The notes under the pieces are model-generated. The model saw only the letters and a list, made by a program, of their open reading frames with translations, was not told the origin of the DNA and ran no database searches. This document shows, one piece after another, positions 496 to 41,473 of a stretch of DNA of 64,000 nt; positions within the stretch are counted from its first letter, which is position 1, and every line of letters begins with the position of its first letter. The DNA comes from Sphyrna mokarran (taxonomy: Eukaryota), in contig JAGIQG010000030.1 of the NCBI GenBank assembly GCA_024679065.1, forward strand, positions 6,262,001-6,326,000, written 5' to 3'. The position numbers were made by a program, and so were the translations under genes.

Positions 496-1694
496 CAGAG
501 ATTATGGAGTCACGTGAAGAGGCCAAGGTCAATTTAGCAAGTTCTATTTTCTATGGAATCTTTGTGAATTAGAAGCAGGAGTTCTGCCCTAGAACCTTGC
601 AAAGAACCTTGAGCTCCAGACAGACCTGTCCCTCCCTCCCATCACCAGAATCAGCTGGCAAACCATCTCCCCAGTACCAGCCTTATGCCAGCTGCAGACC
701 AGCATCCTCAGATGTCTGAGCCAGTTGTTGCTGCAGCCCCTGACTCCCACCAGTTCTGGGTAAGAGATTGTCTTACCCTGGTGCTAAAATGGCCAGGACC
801 TCACGCTAAACGCCTTACAAAGGTTCTCTCCTGTCCCATGCCCCTACTGCCCCAAACTTCCCCTCAATTTAAAAGCGATATTGGCTTTGTATTGCCAGGA
901 ATGTGCAGAATAGCAGATTTTAGAATTATGGGAAAAAGCTACTCTTTTAAGAATCCTTAGGCCTGATCTCTCCATTCATTGAGTGGCTGGGTGAGTTTAA
1001 CTGTTCCTCTTCCGTGATAATCTTTTTAAGAAGAAATTGCACTTAGCTCTTGAGACTAAAGGGATGGAGGGATGTAAGGTGAAAGCGAGATCAGGAGATT
1101 GAATTTGATGATCAGCCACGAATGGCGGAGCAAGATCAAAGGGCTGAATGGCCTACTACTGCTCCTATTTTCGATGTTATAGGGACTTATCTAATTCTTT
1201 CTCTCCTTACAAATAATGATTCAGTATCTTCTTCAATGCTGCATTCAATTCCACATTGTTCCTTTCTTGTGGTAAAGCATTCCACATTCTGATAACACTT
1301 GTCATGATAAAGGTTTTTTCTTATCTCCCCTTAATGTATCCAGTGGTTATCTTGACATGAGAATCTCTTGTGCTTGATTTTCCTGGCAGTGAAATAATCT
1401 ATTTATGTGTTTGTTTTGCCAATGTCTTTCATCACTGAGCTACAATAGGTGGCTGGTTATATCTTTTATCTCACTGTGTGTACCTATGTCTGCACAATGG
1501 GTCACTACTTCTGGGAGAACGTTAATGAACAAAACCCAGCCTGACAGACAGGGCATTTACCTAACTCAGCAGCCTTGACTATACCTCAAGGTTCATCACA
1601 GAATGTCTACAGTGCAGAAGGAGGCTGTTTGGCCTTTCGAGTCTGCACTGACAATGATCCCACCCAGGCTCTATCCCTGTCACTCCATATATTT

Positions 1695-2481
1695 GATGTA
1701 AAGATGCCGGCATTGGATTGGAGTGGTAAGAACTCAGTAAGAATTTAGCAACACCAATTATTAATCCAACCGATTTATTTGACAGTAAAAAAGCGAGCTT
1801 TCAACACTCCCGTGTCTTCATCAGGCAAGTGCAGTGTTCTGGTCTGCAATAGCACACATCAGCACAGACAGTCAGAGATTGCTGATTAGAATGCGAATCC
1901 TTACATCTAACCTGCTATTCAAGTGTTAAAGTGGCTAACAATGTGTGTGAAGGGAATCCTGAGCATTGGTTAGAGAATTGTGTATTTTCTCCAGACAGCA
2001 CAGTAAGTGAGGTTTTTTGCTAACCCAGGCAAGTTACGGGGGTTACAGATAGTGTGTCATGAAGCCAAGATCCCTGTTAAGACCGTCCTCATGTGTGCGG
2101 AGCTTGGCTATCAGTCTCTGCCCAGCGACCCCGCGCCGCCGCGCACCACGAAAGCCCCCCCGAAGAACACCCACCCGCAGGTCGGAGGCCGAACGCCCAC
2201 GACCGCCGAAGTGCCCGCCCACAGGAAGGGAACCGCCCCGCCCGGCAACCGCCGAGCGACGCCCACCCACCCGCCGCCGCAGCGCCCGCATGGCCCCCCC
2301 AAACACACCACGCCTCGGGACATCCCCTCCCGCAATGCACCAGGCAGACAACGCCGGCCGAGCCGCAAGAGCATGCACCGTGCACCCGGCGAACGGCACC
2401 CCCACGCCCGACGACGCCGTCCACGTCCACGATCCGGCACGTCCCGCAATTGGTGTTGCTAAATTCTTACTGAGTTCTTAC
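1695..2481 (-). mobile_element. 5'-truncated Penelope-like element (GIY-YIG endonuclease C-terminus plus 3' pLTR), A-to-G hypermutated in part, with inverted terminal segment
   Basis: Minus-strand peptides ...SAGVVCLVHCGRGCPEAWCV... and ...QRLIAKLRTHEDGLNRDLGFMTHYL* resemble a PLE GIY-YIG domain; direct repeats cactccatatattt at 1681-1694 and 2482-2495; 41-bp inverted repeat 1719-1759 / 2448-2488. Confidence 0.85.
1795..1831 (-). ncRNA. Minimal hammerhead ribozyme-like motif of a Penelope pLTR
   Basis: Minus strand reads CUGAUGA-A-GACAC-GGGA-GUGUU-GAAA-GCUC: both conserved core boxes flank a hairpin. Stem I pairing is weak. Confidence 0.65.
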
Positions 2482-3434
2482 CACTCCATATATTTACCCT
2501 CTTAATCCCTCTGACACTAAGGAACAATTTAGCATGGCCAATCAACCTAACCCACACATTTTTAGAGTGTGGAAGGAAACCAGACCCACCCACGTAGACA
2601 TTGGGAAAACTCTATATAGGCAATAACCTAAATCCCTAATCCCATAACTCCATATATTTACTCTGCTAATCCCCCTGATGCTAAGGGTCAATTTAGCATG
2701 GCCAATACACCTAACCCGCACATATTTCGACTGTAGGAGGAAACTGGAACACCTGGAAGAAACCTATGCAGATATGGGGGAGAATGTGCTAACTCCACAC
2801 AGACAGTTACCCCAAACTGGGAATTGAACCTGGGTTCCTGGCGCTGTGAGGCAGCAGTGCTAACTACTGTGCCACCTGTGATGGCACCAATACATGTTTG
2901 GATCTGGCTCTGTATATCTGTAGAATCTTGCTCCCTAAGTGCTTTTCTGCAAATGCCAGTTAGCTGTTCAACTGTGAAGGTCATCACAGCAGGACATCTT
3001 CACCCCCTGTCCTTGCTTTTCATCCACAAAGATGCCCATTTTCTATTGGGAATCACTAGGATGATGTCTAATTACTGGAATCCTGGACATGTTCTTCCTT
3101 GTGAGGGGTATACAGCCCGACAGAAGGATCAGTTACAGTCTTGAGGTAATGTTGCTGAAAAGATTTAGTTTTTGCAGAATTTTAACTTTATTTTCAGTCA
3201 TAAATTTATATATTGCTTTGGTTAAATATGAATTTCACCTTCTCTGCTTCAATTTTAAGCCCCTTGAATAATCTGGAGACAGAAGGATTCAGGAATGTGC
3301 AGAGTAGCAGATTTTAGAATTGCCATTCTAAAATATATTTTAAATGACAATTCTGTTCCATCTACTCACTGTTATACAGTTCCCCAAAATCATATTGTTA
3401 GTGGAGTGTAACACTTGTAGTAAAAAGTTTCAGT

Positions 3435-25732: not shown

Positions 25733-28486
25733 AGGGACAGGAATGGTTGTTGCAGGTTCCGGGGTTCAAATGCTTCAGTCGGAGTAGAGAAGGAGGTAGA
25801 AGCGGGGGAGGAGTGGCATTATTAGTCAAAGACTGTATCACAGTGACAGAAAAGAAGTTTGATGAGGACTTGTCTGTTGAGGTAGTATGGGCTGAGATTA
25901 GAAACAGGAGAGGAGAGGTCACCCTGTTGGGAGTCTTTTATAGACCTCCTAAAAGCTCTAGAGAGGTAGAGGAAAGGATTGCAAAGTCGATCCTGGACAG
26001 GAGTGAAAGTAATAGGGTAATTGTTATGGGGGACTTTAACTTTACTAATATTGATTGGAATAGCTATAGCTCTAGCTCGTTAGAGGGGTCAGTTTTTGTA
26101 CAAAGTGTGCAGGAAGGTTTTTTGACTCAGTATGTAGATAGGCCAACTAGAGGTGAGGCTACATTGGATTTGGTGCTGGGCAATGAGCCAGACCAGGTGT
26201 TAGGCTTGGAAGTTAGTGAACATTTTGGTGATAGTGACCACAATTCGGTTACGTTCACCTTAGTGATGGATAGGGATAGGCATGAAGCTGGGGGCAGTAG
26301 TTATAGCTGGGGGAAGGGTAATTATGAGGCCATCAGGAGAGAATTAGGGTGCATAGGTTGGAGGAGTAAACTACAGGGACTGGGAACATCTGGAATGTGG
26401 AGCTTATTCAAGGAGCAGCTGCTGCGAGTCCTTGATAAGTATGTCCCTGTCAGGCAAGGAGGAAATGGTCGAGTAAGGGAGCCATGGTGTATGAAAAAAG
26501 TTAATTCGCTGGTTAAAAGGAAAAAAGAGGCTTATGTCAGGATGAGGCTTGAAGGCTCAGTTAGTGCAATGGATAGCTATAGATTAGCCAGGAGGGAGCT
26601 AAAGAGTGAGTTGAGGAGAGCTAAGAGGGGACACGAGAAGACTTTGGCTGATAGGATTAAGGAGAATCCTAAAGCTTTCTTTAGTTATGTTAAGAATAGA
26701 AGATTGGTTAGGGCAAGATTAGGGCCAGTCATAGACAGCAGTGGGAAGTTGTGCGTGGAGCCTGAAGAGATTGGAGAGGCACTGAACAAATATTTCTCTT
26801 CGGTATTCACGCAGGGAGATGTAAATGTAGTTGTGGAGAACACTGAGGTACAGGGTTGCAAACTGGAAAGTATTGAAGTAGATAGGGAGGATGTGCTAGA
26901 TATTCTTGAGGGTTTGAAGTTGGATAAGTCCCCTGGGCCGGACGGGATTTACCCTAGGATTCTCTGGGAGGCAAGAGAGGAGATTGCAGAGCCTCTGGCT
27001 CTGATCTTCAGGTCGTCGTTGGTTATGGGTGTGGTTCCGGAGGACTGGAGGATAGCGAATGTGGTCCCATTGTTCAAGAAGGGGAAGAGAGACCTTCCAG
27101 GGAATTATAGGCCAGTGAGTCTTACTTCTGTTGTGGGCAAAGTATTGGAGAGAATTATTAGGGATAGGATTTATAGTTATTTAGAGAGAAATGAATTGAT
27201 TGGGGATAGTCAGCATGGTTTTGTGAAGGGTAGGTCGTGCCTTACTAACCTTATTGAGTTTTTTGAAAAAGTGACCAAAGAGGTGGATGGGGGTAAGGCA
27301 GTTGATGTGGTATATATGGACTTTAGTAAGGCGTTCGATAAGGTGGCCCATGGAAGGCTTCTGCAGAAAATGCAGATGTATGGGATTGAGGGTGATTTAG
27401 CTAATTGGATTAGGAATTGGCTAGCAGATAGAAGACAGAGGGTGGTGGTTGATGGGAGATATTCATCGTGGAGTTCGGTGACAAGTGGTGTACCTCAGGG
27501 GTCTGTTTTGGGGCCCCTGCTGTTTGTAATTTTTATAAATGATCTGGATGAGGGTATTGAAGGATGGATTAGTAAATTTGCAGATGACACTAAAGTCGGT
27601 GGAGTGGTAGATAGTGAAGAGGGGTGTTATAGTTTGCAGAGAGACTTGGACAAGTTGCAGAGCTGGGCCGAGAGGTGGTAAATGGAGTTTAATGTGGAAA
27701 AGTGTGAGGTAATGCACTTTGGCAGGAATAATAAATGTGTAGAGTATAGGGCTAATGGTAGGATTCTTAATAGTGTTGATGAACAGAGGGATCTTGGTGT
27801 ATATGTGCATAGATCCCTGAAAGTAGGCAGTCAAGTCGATAAGGTTGTTAAGAAGGCATACGGAGTCTTAGCTTTTATTGGTAGGGGGATTGAATTTCGG
27901 AGCCGCAACGTCATGTTGCAACTGTACAAAACTCTAGTGCGCCGCACTTGGAGTATTGTGTGCAGTTCTGGTCCCCACATTATAAGAAAGATGTGGAGGC
28001 ATTGGAGAGGGTACAGAGGAGGTTTACCAGGATGTTGCCTGGTATGGAGGGCAGGTCTTATGAAGAGAGGCTGAGGGATTTGAGGTTGTTTTCGTTAGAA
28101 AGGAGGCGGCTAAGAGGGGACCTAATCGAAACATATAAGATGATTAGAGGTTTAGATAGGGTGGACAGTGATAGCCTTTTTCCTAGGATGGAGAAAGCTA
28201 GCACGAGGGGACACAGCTTTAAATTAAGGGGTGATAGTTATAGGACGGATATCAGAGGTAGGTTCTTTACCCAGAGGGTGGTTAGGGAGTGGAATGCCCT
28301 GCCTGCGGCAGTTGTAGATGCGCCAAGTTTGGTGGCGTTTAAGAGGTTAGTTGATAAGTTTATGGAAGAGAAGGGAATGGTTTAGTTTGGAGGGTCATTG
28401 CTTTTTTTTCATAATTGGTTGGCGCAACATCAAAGGCCGAAGGGCCTGTTCTGCGCTGTAATGTTCTATGTTCTATGTTCTATGTT
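25733..28486 (+). mobile_element. Young 5'-truncated CR1 (HER1-like) LINE, ORF2 with AP endonuclease and RT, in an RLBP1 intron
   Basis: 644-aa open frame with [34 protein letters not shown] and FADD motifs; one nonsense codon at 27679-27681 and a 1-bp deletion near 27941; ORF2 ends at 28385; (TTCTATG)n tail; splits an older antisense CR1 fragment with a gttt duplication. Confidence 0.95.
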
Positions 28487-37816: not shown

Positions 37817-39189
37817 GACCATCAATACTGTCTGTAGACAATGAACAGAAACAGCTTTTTGTCTAAAATACTTACAATTTTTCCCCCTTCAATGTACTAA
37901 GCCTGCCATGGAAATTAGGTTGCCACTTTCTTGTATCTCATGATGTGGCCTTTCATTCCCCCCAAGCCCACAGACTTTGTGGCATCCTGTCCTTACTTAA
38001 ATGGCAGAAGTTGAAGCTGGGCTAGACACAGAGGTTTGAAGGGCAGCGAGAGACTAGAGAGAGAAAGAGAAATGTAAGTGGAGCCAGCAAGACAGAAATA
38101 GAAGCTTTCTGAATTTATTCAATGGCACAAAACATGAAAAGCTATGGCCAGAACTTTCCAACTGTTTGCGCCAGCAGGATTTTCCCGTCCCACTGCAGTG
38201 AACAGAAACTTGGTTTATCGCTAACTTTTCCAACTTCACTGCAGCGAGAGCGTGGCGTGAACAGGTGATAAGACCTCCATGTGAGTAAAGTTCTAATTCA
38301 CAGAATCATAGAACCCTCTAGAGTGTTGAAGATGCCACTCAGTCCATCGAGACTGCATTGACTCTTGACAGAGTGTTTTGCCCAGATTCTCTCTGCTGCC
38401 CTATCCCCATTACTCCACACATCTCCCCATGGCTAATCCATCCAACCTACACATCATGGGACTCTAAGGGGCAATTTCACGTGACCAATTCACCCAACCT
38501 GCACTTTCCTGAATGAGAATTTTGATCCCATATTATCTGGTCTTATTTCCTGCAATTGTTCATGCTGAAATGTAGACATGACATTTGCTTCAGTCGAAAG
38601 TTCTGCTTGTGAATTCCACAGCCGTGCAATCTTACATGTCAGGAAGGTTGTCTCTTCACTGTTTTAAACTTTTTACAGTTAATGTTCCACCTCTAACCCC
38701 ATGTTATAGACATTTCACTCATTTTCACCCACCCATTTCTATCTGCTCTGTTCCTTTCCTAATTTTAAACACTTGCACCAAATCGCCCCTCAGTGTTGGA
38801 AGGGTTAAGTCTGTCCTGCTTGACTCGAGCCAACCTCAGAGCTGAATACGCTCCCTGTATGTGTGGATCTGGTGACCGTTATTTTAGAGAATTGCAGCTT
38901 GTGCTGTATGGATGAAAGCTCCTGCTGATGGGCCAAGGGAGTGGGGGTAAGGTTCCTGTCAGGAAATGAGCAGTGATGCAGTGGGACACTCGCCAGCAGT
39001 TCAGAAATTTGCCCCAGACAGCAGAGCATTGAGGTGTTCAATAACATCATAATTGCTCACTCGTCAAGACCAGAACTTCAATTTCAAAAATCTGCTCAAA
39101 CACATTTCTGTACTGACAGCATCCTCAATCCTCCACAGCCCTGTTCCTGTAATGCGTAACATTCACCCTGTTCTGTTACTTGGCTGCAG

Positions 39190-39490
39190 GCAGTGGCAGG
39201 GGAGAGGACGACATGAGTGGGGTGGCATGGATGGGAATGCAGGGGGATGGCATGGATGGAGTGGCATGAGTAGGGTAGCATGGGTGGAGGTTGTAGAGGT
39301 GGCATGGGTGGATGAGCATGAGTGGAGGTGGCATGACAGAGGTGAGTGGGGGATGGCACAGATAGGATGGTATATGGATGGGGGTGTAATGGAAGACATG
39401 AGTGGGGTGGCATGGGTGGAGATTGTAGGGGGTGACATGGTGGGTGGACATAGGGGGTAGCACAGGTGGAGGTTGGAGGAAGCCATGTTG
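39190..39490. repeat. Degenerate G-rich low-complexity repeat (GGCATGGGTG-like)
   Basis: Recurring ggcatg/ggtgg units; source of several spurious ORFs. Confidence 0.75.
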
Positions 39491-41473
39491 TTGGACAAGG
39501 TGGCATCTCGTGACCTTTCTTGCAAAGTTCATCCCCCATGACTGAATATCCTCATGGCATGTACTCACTGCCTGGATTCACGCTTGGAGAATGGTCACTT
39601 GAATGAGTTCACAGAGGGTTGTTGTCTCCCAGCAAAGTCGGGAGAGAAGAGAATCAATTAGGTAAATAGTAAACAATTCTTTATCACAAGTGATGTATCT
39701 GTGTTCATGTCTATCCTCAAATCACTGTGTCCAAAACACTCTCATATCAACATCATAAATGACAACGTTAGAAAAACATATTTTTACTGGTTTCATCCAA
39801 GACCAAAAGCCAACAATCAAAATGTTTCTGCTGTTTGTCACATCCCAAAATCACGTTGGACATTCAGACAGAACATGGCAGAGGCTCACTGTGAAGCACC
39901 AGCCTGAGGAAACACCAGGGGGTGCTACAACCCCATCAGTTGTGTGAGTAAGTAGCTGCTATTTACAGAGGTTTTAAAGTGTTCGTAAACTGGTCATAAA
40001 TCTGCCTTTTATTCTGTTTGCAACCAATCAACTTTGAAGCAAAGATTATAAACACATTTATAGCAAGTTTGTGATGCAAGCTAGGGAGGTGTACTCCTCA
40101 TGTAAACTCAGAAAATAAGGACGGGAGGTCTGAGTATCTCAGAACAGAAAGGACAGGACCATCCTCTGAAGCAAAGTTTTGATCTGTTACATAAAAAACT
40201 CACATCTGTTGATTTGATTGGGGGGGGGGGGTCAGTGGAGCAGTTAATATAATAATGGGTGCAACAAAAGTGAATTATTTTTTAAATATGTGTTGTGGGA
40301 GGAGTTTATATCACTTTTCAGATCATGGTGTGGTTCAGAAAATGCACTGGTTTGCAACAACTTACAGGCATGCAGAGATACATAGATTTATACATATGGA
40401 CAGTTGATTCTCATTCTCAAAGCCAGAGGCAATCTCAGTTGAGGGTCTCAGAGCTTGTGGGGGAGGTGAAATGCAAGGGGCAGCAGGATTAGAATGTACT
40501 TTAATCTGAATTAAATTGTAAGTGTTGGAAAGCCTGGAATGCATTACGTCAACTCTTTCCCACGGTCAAACTCGTGTCAACTCCTCAAGGTTTGACCAAG
40601 AAACAAATTGCCGTTGATCATTGGGAAGTGTTTAACAAGATCAAGATGTTTAAAAATTCACAATTTCTGAGCAACATTTTTGTATTTTTTTTCTAATTTG
40701 CCTCACACTTGCATATTTAGCTTCATGGTACAGTCACAACGTGTCCTTTATCTGTTTTTAAATATGTACAAAGTTGTCTTTGGACATGACAATTTCTAAT
40801 TTGGGGGATAGGGTGAAATATTGGGTAGAAAACAAGGCGGAGATGCTACATGGTGTCATTTGATCTGTGGCCTATTCGGCCCAGCTCAATGAGATGTAAT
40901 ATCTTCGTGTTGTTTTAGCCTCTAGCACTGACCCAGTTTGTGTCCTGGGTTGCCTCTGAGGGGATTCAGCACTTGCCTGATGCTCTTCATTCTTCATGTT
41001 CTGCATCTTCAGGGTGTTTCTCAACAGACAATTTAAGAATCAGAGATATGGTTGGCTGCCATATGCATACAACAGCACCAGTCACTAGCCTCTCCCCATT
41101 CCCTAGAGATTTTAATTTTATTCAGCCAACAAAGCTGGAACTCATTTACAGAAAGTTGATGAACGCAAGCTCAATTTTTTTGTATCTGCTTCTCCAGACA
41201 TTATTGACTTCTGGGGGATTGCTGCGTTGGGACTAACAGCCCCCATTAACCTCATACATTGTTCATGGCTGAAGAAGTCAAACAATATTGAGATGTTCAA
41301 TCTTGCGATCCACCAATAGGTGCACACTTGTTAGCCTGAAAAGCTACAAGACGATTTTGAAGGCATACGTTTAGGAAAGGGATTTTCCCAAGGTACTAAC
41401 TTCACTTCCACTGGTAGAGTGAGGAGTGAATGAAGTGCATGTTGGTACACAGACCTAGGAAGGCCGCAGGGAG

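What the first reader, a model, noticed from the sequence alone, without database searches (positions are those of the whole stretch)
2121..2447. Genomic fossil of an A-to-I hyper-edited retroelement RNA (ADAR signature in a Penelope GIY-YIG ORF)
Seen: the + strand has only 13 T in 327 nt (about 4%), against 23 T in the adjacent 80 nt (2041-2120) of the same ORF, with a sharp boundary. The element's sense (-) strand has therefore lost almost all A. All 13 surviving sense-strand A have a 5' G (8) or 5' C (5), none a 5' A or T. Established: ADAR prefers 5' neighbours U>A>C>G, and inosine is copied as G by reverse transcriptase. Against the PLE consensus as I recall it, the peptide changes are those of A-to-G: VVY..YIGET becomes VVC..CV plus a G-run frameshift, with Q/H to R, D/E/S to G and T to A, while the unedited end (LIAKLRTHEDGLNRDLGF) is intact. 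Inference: a double-stranded PLE transcript was hyper-edited, retrotransposed and fixed in the germline. That destroyed the endonuclease motif and created an instant CpG-rich island. APOBEC G-to-A edited retroelements are well known; heritable ADAR-type copies are much less so. Caveat: some 5' G neighbours may themselves be edited A.
Basis: partly seen in the sequence, partly recalled or inferred. Interest (0 to 1): 0.9.

Follow-up and report, generated by a model that had tools for sequence, protein, structure and literature searches.

The report
ADAR-edited retrotransposon RNA fossilised in genome
A jumping-gene copy has 81 of 93 adenines in one stretch changed to guanine on one strand only, and dozens of other copies in the same genome carry independent bursts of the same kind, most likely because the RNA-editing enzyme ADAR rewrote their RNA before it was copied back into inherited DNA.

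Summary
Confirmed and extended. Window 1695-2488 is a young, 5'-truncated Penelope-like retrotransposon copy with a 13-bp target duplication. Against 21 sister copies, 81 of 93 sense-strand A in 2121-2447 read G; the only other differences are two CpG transitions and one extra T. Among 141 family insertions examined, 38 independent events carry sense A>G tracts and none carries a T>C, G>A or C>T tract. The pooled 5'-neighbour order is T>A>C>G (p 5e-85), with a 3'-G preference, as expected for ADAR. CpG decay overlies the edits, so they are old, inherited DNA. A CR1 LINE shows the same (7 events), plus one fold-back insertion edited in both arms on one strand. New by-product: the two inverted arms of one Penelope insertion usually share the same edits (16 of 19 loci), so both likely derive from one RNA molecule. 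Ten literature searches found no report for germline non-LTR copies; the precedent is exogenous retroviruses. This scan noted similar cases before in other genomes (L1, LINE, ERV; unchecked AI notes).

The parts
1682..1694 (.). Left target-site duplication (13 bp) in the host SINE
   Evidence: Same 13 letters at 2483-2495 (D3); host SINE continues on both sides
1695..2447 (-). Long arm: 5'-truncated Penelope-like element (end of the GIY-YIG domain, 3' UTR, tail); no RT
   Evidence: Aligns 1695-2448 to sister copies; sister ORF has RVT_1 and GIY-YIG hits
2121..2447 (-). A>G hyper-mutated tract: 81 of 93 parental A read G (first at 2445, last at 2122)
   Evidence: 79 of 91 with the larger yardstick
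2292..2352 (-). GIY-YIG motif region (VVY..WYIGET in the sister), altered by A>G changes and one extra T at about 2303
   Evidence: Alignment; translation of natural sister
1695..2120 (-). Unedited 3' part: ORF end (stop codon 2045-2043), 3' UTR and tail
   Evidence: Up to 99% identical to other copies over 1760-2120; no A>G tract
1799..1824 (-). Hammerhead-like core boxes (motif recalled; not confirmed)
   Evidence: Visible; no Rfam match at E<=1; fold not better than shuffles, z 0.71
1695..1718 (-). PLE 'tail', present on this arm only
   Evidence: Long arm runs to 1695 while the inverted arm mirrors only to 1719; tail as described in PMC8557442 and PMC11167929
2448..2488 (+). Short inverted second arm (41 nt, 100% complementary to 1719-1759), without tail
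   Evidence: I1
2483..2495 (.). Right target-site duplication; its first 6 nt overlap the short arm
25735..28440 (+). Unedited CR1-type LINE used as comparator family (clade name from recalled resemblance)
   Evidence: 648-aa open frame; its motif has 37,760 exact matches

Best explanation
This is a Penelope-like retrotransposon copy carrying 81 sense-strand A-to-G changes in one tract, most likely written by ADAR on double-stranded RNA and then likely copied into germline DNA by the element's reverse transcriptase. Steps: (1) Shown: the family often inserts as head-to-head inverted arms. (2) Inferred: read-through or antisense transcription makes long dsRNA, and ADAR deaminates many A to inosine. 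(3) Inferred: an RNA whose 3' end stays unpaired and unedited is still recognised, and RT reads inosine as G (established chemistry). (4) Shown: the product lies in chromosome-scale DNA between target duplications and has since aged by CpG decay. (5) Shown: both arms of one insertion usually share one edit pattern; inferred from this, both target nicks prime on the same RNA molecule.
For: Purity: in 37 other events, A>G 2435 of 5744 A, against A>T 17, A>C 10, T>C 27. Context: 5' T 409/624, A 668/1215, C 896/2266, G 338/1358 (p 5e-85); 3' G highest, 592/1153 (p 2e-13). This matches ADAR as read in PMC3113232 (U and A preferred 5'; 3' G for ADAR2) and PMC2873906 (G depleted upstream). Strand: 28-nt motif counts are 6,936 unedited, 15 with three forced A>G, 1 with three forced T>C. 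Independence: Jaccard of edit sets between insertions has median 0.36 over 578 pairs; only the C875/C876 duplicate exceeds 0.8. Second family: CR1 counts are 37,760 / 8 / 1; all 8 are A>G-skewed (7 events; 5' T .88, A .81, C .45, G .23). Duplex: the CR1 T>C hit is one insertion which, read on one strand, is sense piece (9/17 A>G) + antisense copy (76/131) + unedited 3' end with tail. Age: parental CA reads TG at 60 of 2266 sites in tracts, and fewer than 16 of about 18,500 in 164 unedited arms. dsRNA source: 8 of 25 position-ordered insertions have overlapping inverted arms of 151-1080 nt. A_deamin-domain loci exist in the genome (29 exon-level matches; ADAR, ADAD and ADAT not told apart).
Against: The focal 87% is far above the other events (25-63%) and above the roughly 50-60% ceiling I recall for one perfect duplex; it needs re-pairing or repeated rounds, which is not shown. 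The partner strand and the cause of the sharp edge at 2121 are not identified. No enzyme or RNA intermediate is shown directly. In HeLa cells ADAR1 restricts L1 without editing it (PMC5224506, passages). No listed contig spans the whole insertion; X1 record 8 lays only 84 of 206 letters, ending at 2448; raw run X21 (about 0.7x) has no read on 2265-2439, which at that depth tells little. Three multi-arm loci share no edits, and at least three others differ in a block of edits between arms. Most edited copies were found with baits that favour A>G.
Confidence: 0.9

Rival explanations
1. An error-prone polymerase (the element's RT under dNTP imbalance, or pol eta/iota in second-strand synthesis) makes the A>G tracts, with no RNA editing.
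For: It would also be strand-biased and tract-like. Pol eta prefers A after A or T (recalled), which resembles the top of the 5' order.
Against: A>T and A>C are 17 and 10 against 2435 A>G; pol iota and DGR-type RTs give mixed products, and pol eta errs at only a few percent (all recalled). Two unrelated RT families give the same context. In the CR1 fold-back insertion the tract stops at 3055, just inside the end of the pairing arm at 3078, and spares the 3' end.
Confidence: 0.04
2. An adenosine deaminase other than canonical ADAR on dsRNA is responsible: a germline ADAD or ADAT-type enzyme, or ADAR acting on the RNA or DNA strand of a hybrid during integration.
For: The genome has several A_deamin loci that were not classified. 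Editing of the RNA strand in an RNA:cDNA hybrid could not be told apart from these data alone, and the focal 87% is unusually high.
Against: Deamination of first-strand cDNA would give sense T>C; 0 of 141 insertions have such a tract at threshold. Shared patterns in both arms need the edits to exist before copying. The context matches ADAR.
Confidence: 0.04
3. The tract is an assembly or sequencing artefact, for example edited RNA reads or a base-calling bias entering the assembly.
For: No listed record spans both junctions; X1 may be the assembly's own sample; X21 shows no tract reads. Mismatch-cluster artefacts exist in Sanger traces (PMC2873906, passages).
Against: Target duplication and continuous host SINE; the strand follows the element, not the contig (8 forward, 7 reverse); both arms carry the pattern in mirror image; CpG decay overlies it; X1 contigs match 2100-2203, 2292-2394 and 2365-2448 with 0 differences at depth about 10.
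Confidence: 0.015
4. A GC-rich subfamily, or GC-biased conversion or ordinary drift, explains the difference.
For: Related edited copies reach 88% identity to the tract.
Against: No two insertions share a pattern beyond context; there is no T>C, A>C or T>G excess; background A>G in unedited arms is 287 of 48,770.
Confidence: 0.005

Closest known systems
ADAR-type A-to-G hypermutation of exogenous retroviruses recorded in proviral DNA (RAV and ALV, Felder 1994 and Hajjar & Linial 1995 as summarised in PMC12925331; BLV 3' LTR clusters, PMC8025556)
   Same: Clustered A>G on the RNA strand, near 50% of A, tied to an inverted repeat, and fixed by reverse transcription.
   Different: Those are infectious retroviruses in cultured or somatic cells. 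Here the elements are endogenous non-LTR types (Penelope-like, CR1), inherited, aged by CpG decay and repeated in dozens of independent events, with tracts up to about 1.5 kb.
APOBEC 'DNA editing' of LTR retrotransposons in vertebrate genomes (Knisbacher & Levanon, PMC4866542)
   Same: Heritable, clustered, strand-biased deaminase scars in retroelement copies.
   Different: That is G>A from C-to-U on cDNA. The screen covered LTR elements only and kept G-to-A, not A-to-G, alignments (passages), so it could not report this class.
A-to-I hyper-editing of repeat-derived dsRNA in transcriptomes (PMC2873906, passages; PMC5625713, search listing only)
   Same: Same substitution type and neighbour bias.
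   Different: Seen in RNA and transient. PMC2873906 found no A>G excess in high-quality DNA traces of human or Xenopus. Here the edits are in the genome.
Penelope/Poseidon-type PLE insertion structure (PMC8557442; PMC11167929)
   Same: RT followed by GIY-YIG, 5' truncation, inverted 5'-truncated copy, tail at one end (35 of 42 head-to-head pairs).
   Different: The cited passages call the origin of the inverted structure unresolved. Shared edit barcodes give genomic evidence that both arms come from one RNA molecule.

Membership tests
Penelope-like element (EN+) | [quoted passage not shown] | tested here: met
   Natural sister P0001: RVT_1 E 3.6e-10 (over cut-off); GIY-YIG E 2.6e-4, 21.7 bits, just under the 22.6 cut-off. 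The focal copy holds only the endonuclease end.
Penelope-like element (EN+) | Inverted or partial-tandem 5'-truncated arrangement with a 30-40 nt tail at one end | tested here: met
   I1; 35 of 42 head-to-head pairs have one tail
Penelope-like element (EN+) | Hammerhead ribozyme in the pLTR | tested here: inconclusive
   Core-like boxes seen by eye at 1799-1824; no Rfam hit; fold z 0.71
Penelope/Poseidon clade | RT phylogeny; no Zn-finger linker as in Neptune or Nematis | not tested
   No tree was built
ADAR hyper-editing signature | Clustered, near-pure A>G on the RNA strand | tested here: met
ADAR hyper-editing signature | 5' U/A preferred, 5' G avoided, weaker 3' G preference | tested here: met
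   PLE pooled 5' p 5e-85 and 3' p 2e-13; CR1 5' p 7e-35, but its 3' effect is not significant (p 0.058, C highest)
ADAR hyper-editing signature | Double-stranded RNA substrate | tested here: inconclusive
   Supported by one CR1 fold-back insertion and frequent inverted arms; the partner of the focal tract is not found
ADAR hyper-editing signature | Dependence on ADAR catalytic activity | not testable with these tools
   Needs knock-out or in vitro work
APOBEC DNA editing | Sense-strand G>A clusters | tested here: not met
   0 of 141 insertions have a G>A tract
Germline-inherited insertion | Present in genomic DNA with a target duplication and later ageing | tested here: met
   one CA>TG decay in the focal tract at 2247
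Germline-inherited insertion | Fixed in the species | tested here: inconclusive
   X21 read at about 0.7x; X1 may be the source sample

The most novel reading that the evidence does not exclude
ADAR is a recurrent germline mutagen of non-LTR retrotransposons: roughly 0.5-4% of this Penelope family's insertions are snapshots of single hyper-edited RNA molecules. These natural barcodes show that the two inverted arms of a Penelope insertion are both copied from one RNA, primed at the two target nicks from the tail and no-tail start sites. That settles a step of the Penelope mechanism that is still open.
Probability: 0.6. Interest if true: 0.9.

Novelty: new variant of a known kind. Interest (0 to 1): 0.8.

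Why it matters
A-to-I editing is treated as a transient RNA event, and the published genome screen for deaminase scars that I read covered LTR elements and G-to-A only. Here at least 46 independent events in two retrotransposon classes (38 Penelope-like, 8 CR1) carry the ADAR signature in inherited DNA. That gives a dated record of editing on single germline RNA molecules. It is also a source of sudden CpG- and GC-rich sequence, and a trap for divergence-based dating: a copy under 1% diverged looks 13% diverged. The edits act as molecule barcodes that make the origin of Penelope's inverted arms directly testable, and the spared 3' end points to the RNA part the element's protein must recognise.

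Tried and rejected
Rfam scan for the hammerhead: no match; single-strand fold not significant. Search for a source locus or a propagating edited master: no two insertions share a pattern except the C875/C876 duplicate and CR1 L198/L199. Later homogenisation of arms as the cause of shared edits: disfavoured but not excluded. In 7 of 8 unedited pairs the arms share 0-3 variants and differ at 8-18 sites; one young pair shares 6 and differs at 3. Discordant edits in two older pairs are mostly at CpG-forming sites (12 of 18; 5 of 6). The PLE T>C motif hit (C446:33619685) has only 4-5 T>C in 25 nt, three of them forced by my motif, inside an inverted piece; it fits the RNA-strand rule but is below threshold and is not counted. 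X2 has contigs at least 95% alike along the whole tract, about 1% of family depth against about 0.001% in X1; its RNA status is a guess and summed contig depth is a poor measure, so this is a lead only. Literature searches that found no report of germline ADAR-edited non-LTR or PLE copies: (open-licence library only; most subscription papers are missing, and no supplements were read). Hajjar & Linial 1995 was not held. Earlier-findings look-ups were empty.

Full report
Observation. The counts are exact: 13 T in 327 nt, 23 T in the 80 nt before, and 8 plus 5 sense A after G or C. No other 300-nt window of the 64 kb comes near (9 T against a next-lowest 51).

Anatomy. The tract is the 5' part of a 750-nt insertion on the minus strand. 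A 13-bp duplication (1682-1694, 2483-2495) frames it inside a SINE, and 2448-2488 is a perfect 41-nt inverted copy of 1719-1759. The unedited part finds copies at up to 99% identity in the own genome, 2.77 Gb. A natural sister encodes RT and the VVY..WYIGET endonuclease motif (GIY-YIG just under Pfam's cut-off). Inverted arms and a one-sided tail are the known PLE layout (PMC8557442, passages; PMC11167929, parts 1-2 of 4). The hammerhead was not confirmed. The SINE and LINE content looks like a cartilaginous fish; that is recalled, not tested.

The tract. Of the 29 other loci, 21 covered the tract well and were used as a column yardstick. 81 of 93 parental A read G: after T 13/13, A 20/20, C 33/37, G 15/23. 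The only other differences are G>A at 2336 (an old CpG), C>T at 2247 (a CpG created by the edit beside it) and one extra T at about 2303. Downstream, 1 of 103 A columns reads G, at a polymorphic site.

It is one of many. Using the tract as bait returned copies at up to 88% identity. With further baits and fetches I held 232 distinct segments in 141 clusters. Segments with more than 8% other divergence were left out of the tract counts. 41 clusters have an A>G tract at score 6 or more; four are one event split and duplicated on C875/C876, leaving 38 events. None has a T>C, G>A or C>T tract. Tracts are 69-1537 nt long with 25-63% of A changed; the focal copy, at 87%, is the extreme. Edit sets of different insertions overlap only as context predicts (median Jaccard 0.36 over 578 pairs), so these are independent events.

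Frequency and strand. Most baits favoured A>G, so I ran matched motif counts over the whole genome: 6,936 unedited, 15 with three forced A>G (12 events; one scores 5.4, under my threshold) and 1 with three forced T>C (p 5e-4). The A>G motif catches 8 of 25 known edited arms, implying about 47 edited arms, or 0.7%, at that site. In samples not chosen for editing, 3 of 78 insertions other than the focal one were edited (25 of them had to be unedited at the motif). The range is about 0.5-4%.

Signature. In the 37 other events: 2435 A>G, 17 A>T, 10 A>C, 27 T>C. The 5' rates are T .66, A .55, C .40, G .25 (p 5e-85), and 3' G is highest at .51 (p 2e-13). PMC3113232 (Results part 1 of 2 and Discussion) gives U and A preferred 5', C and G less so, and a 3' G preference for ADAR2; the exact U>A>C>G order is recalled. 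A_deamin-domain loci are present in the genome, not classified.

Real and inherited. Parental CA reads TG at 60 of 2266 tract sites and at fewer than 16 of about 18,500 in unedited arms: the edit came first, then methyl-CpG decay. Edited copies span 0.4-6% other divergence, so the process recurred over time. Contigs of DNA run X1 match three parts of the tract with no difference, but none listed spans the insertion, one lays only 84 of 206 letters, and X1 may be the source sample. X21 was read at about 0.7x and shows nothing on 2265-2439. Population fixation is open.

Second family. For the window's CR1-type LINE the counts are 37,760, 8 and 1. All 8 are A>G-skewed (8-86 A>G against 0-3 T>C; two are duplicates) with the same 5' order; the 3' effect is not significant. 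The PLE rate is about ten times higher by match count (p 1e-7), though arms double-count and the motifs differ. The single T>C hit is the best evidence for a duplex. It is one insertion with a 2-nt duplication that, read on one strand, runs: sense piece (9 of 17 A>G), antisense copy (76 of 131; 5' T .79, A .61, C .46, G .20), unedited 3' end with tail. Its tract ends at 3055, just inside the end of the pairing arm at 3078.

Barcodes on the Penelope mechanism. Within an insertion, 16 arm pairs from 13 insertions share edits (Jaccard 0.85-1.0, median 1.0, over the overlap of their tracts); three more share them over short overlaps; three loci share none. In both arms the change is A>G on the element's sense, so the palindrome was built after editing and not copied from a hairpin. 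35 of 42 head-to-head pairs have one arm with the tail and one without. PMC11167929 reports that a PLE protein nicks and extends both strands from two start sites that bound the tail. I infer that both nicks usually prime on one RNA. Copying one arm from the other's cDNA would look the same. At least three loci differ in a block of edits between arms, which is unexplained.

The spared 3' end. At equal distance from the bait region, editing falls to 3% downstream but stays at 16% upstream, and the last 105 columns show 8 of 746 against a 0.6% background. I infer that the protein-binding end must be unpaired or unedited. Inverted arms of 151-1080 nt occur in 8 of 25 position-ordered insertions, a ready dsRNA source. 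The focal partner strand, the sharp edge and the 87% level remain unexplained.

What is known. Proviral A>G hypermutation ascribed to ADAR is reported for RAV, ALV, HTLV-2 and BLV (PMC12925331 and PMC8025556, passages). The APOBEC screen covered LTR elements and kept only G-to-A (PMC4866542, passages). PMC2873906 saw the A>G excess in RNA traces, not DNA traces (passages). ADAR1 restricts L1 without editing in HeLa cells (PMC5224506, passages). Ten searches found no report for inherited non-LTR or PLE copies; subscription papers and supplements were not seen. This scan holds four unchecked notes of like cases in other genomes; they did not shape my reading, which was recorded.

Verdict. Observation confirmed; ADAR editing before retrotransposition 0.9; new variant of a known kind; interest 0.8.

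Noticed in passing
L203:4391-5289 (G000:C1548, about 83345390-83346288): CR1 fold-back insertion: sense piece, antisense copy and unedited 3' end, with A>G on one strand in both paired arms.
   Followed up: yes
L162 (G000:C446:33619354-33620126): Small rearranged palindromic PLE insertion whose inverted internal pieces share 4-5 T>C in 25 nt; possibly an antisense-read edited piece.
   Followed up: partly
L051 (C2:1964482-1969176), L058 (C771:64878374-64880098), L069 (C871:7266800-7269419): Arms share most edits, but one arm lacks a contiguous block; gene conversion or template switch.
   Followed up: partly
L181 (C1437:21404381-21408262): Tandem (direct) PLE copies also share edits, 14 of 15, so the pLTR-type duplicate may come from the same RNA too.
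   Followed up: partly
L165, L166 (C875 and C876, 39500-42939): The same edited copy, split by about 2.5 kb of other DNA, lies at the ends of two 43-kb contigs; likely a haplotype or assembly duplicate.
   Followed up: no
L204:4781-5759 and L194:1059-1727 (C760): An edited CR1 continues as a second A>G segment (63 of 136 A) beyond an intervening inverted LINE.
   Followed up: no
L054 (C993:45400683-45404221): Unedited inverted pair with lopsided ageing: one arm has 16 private differences, the other 2.
   Followed up: no
window:31352-32118: Inverted repeat with 278-nt arms, 97% complementary, 211 nt apart; a possible dsRNA source or MITE.
   Followed up: no
window:63539-63630: Short older fragment like the PLE 3' end (indirect match).
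   Followed up: no
run X2 on window:2230-2439: Contigs at least 95% alike to the edited tract but not identical, about 1000-fold more abundant relative to the family than in DNA run X1; if X2 is RNA, near-saturated edited transcripts exist.
   Followed up: partly
window:20030-20623 and 39096-39551: Low-complexity pyrimidine-rich open frames; probably not genes.
   Followed up: no
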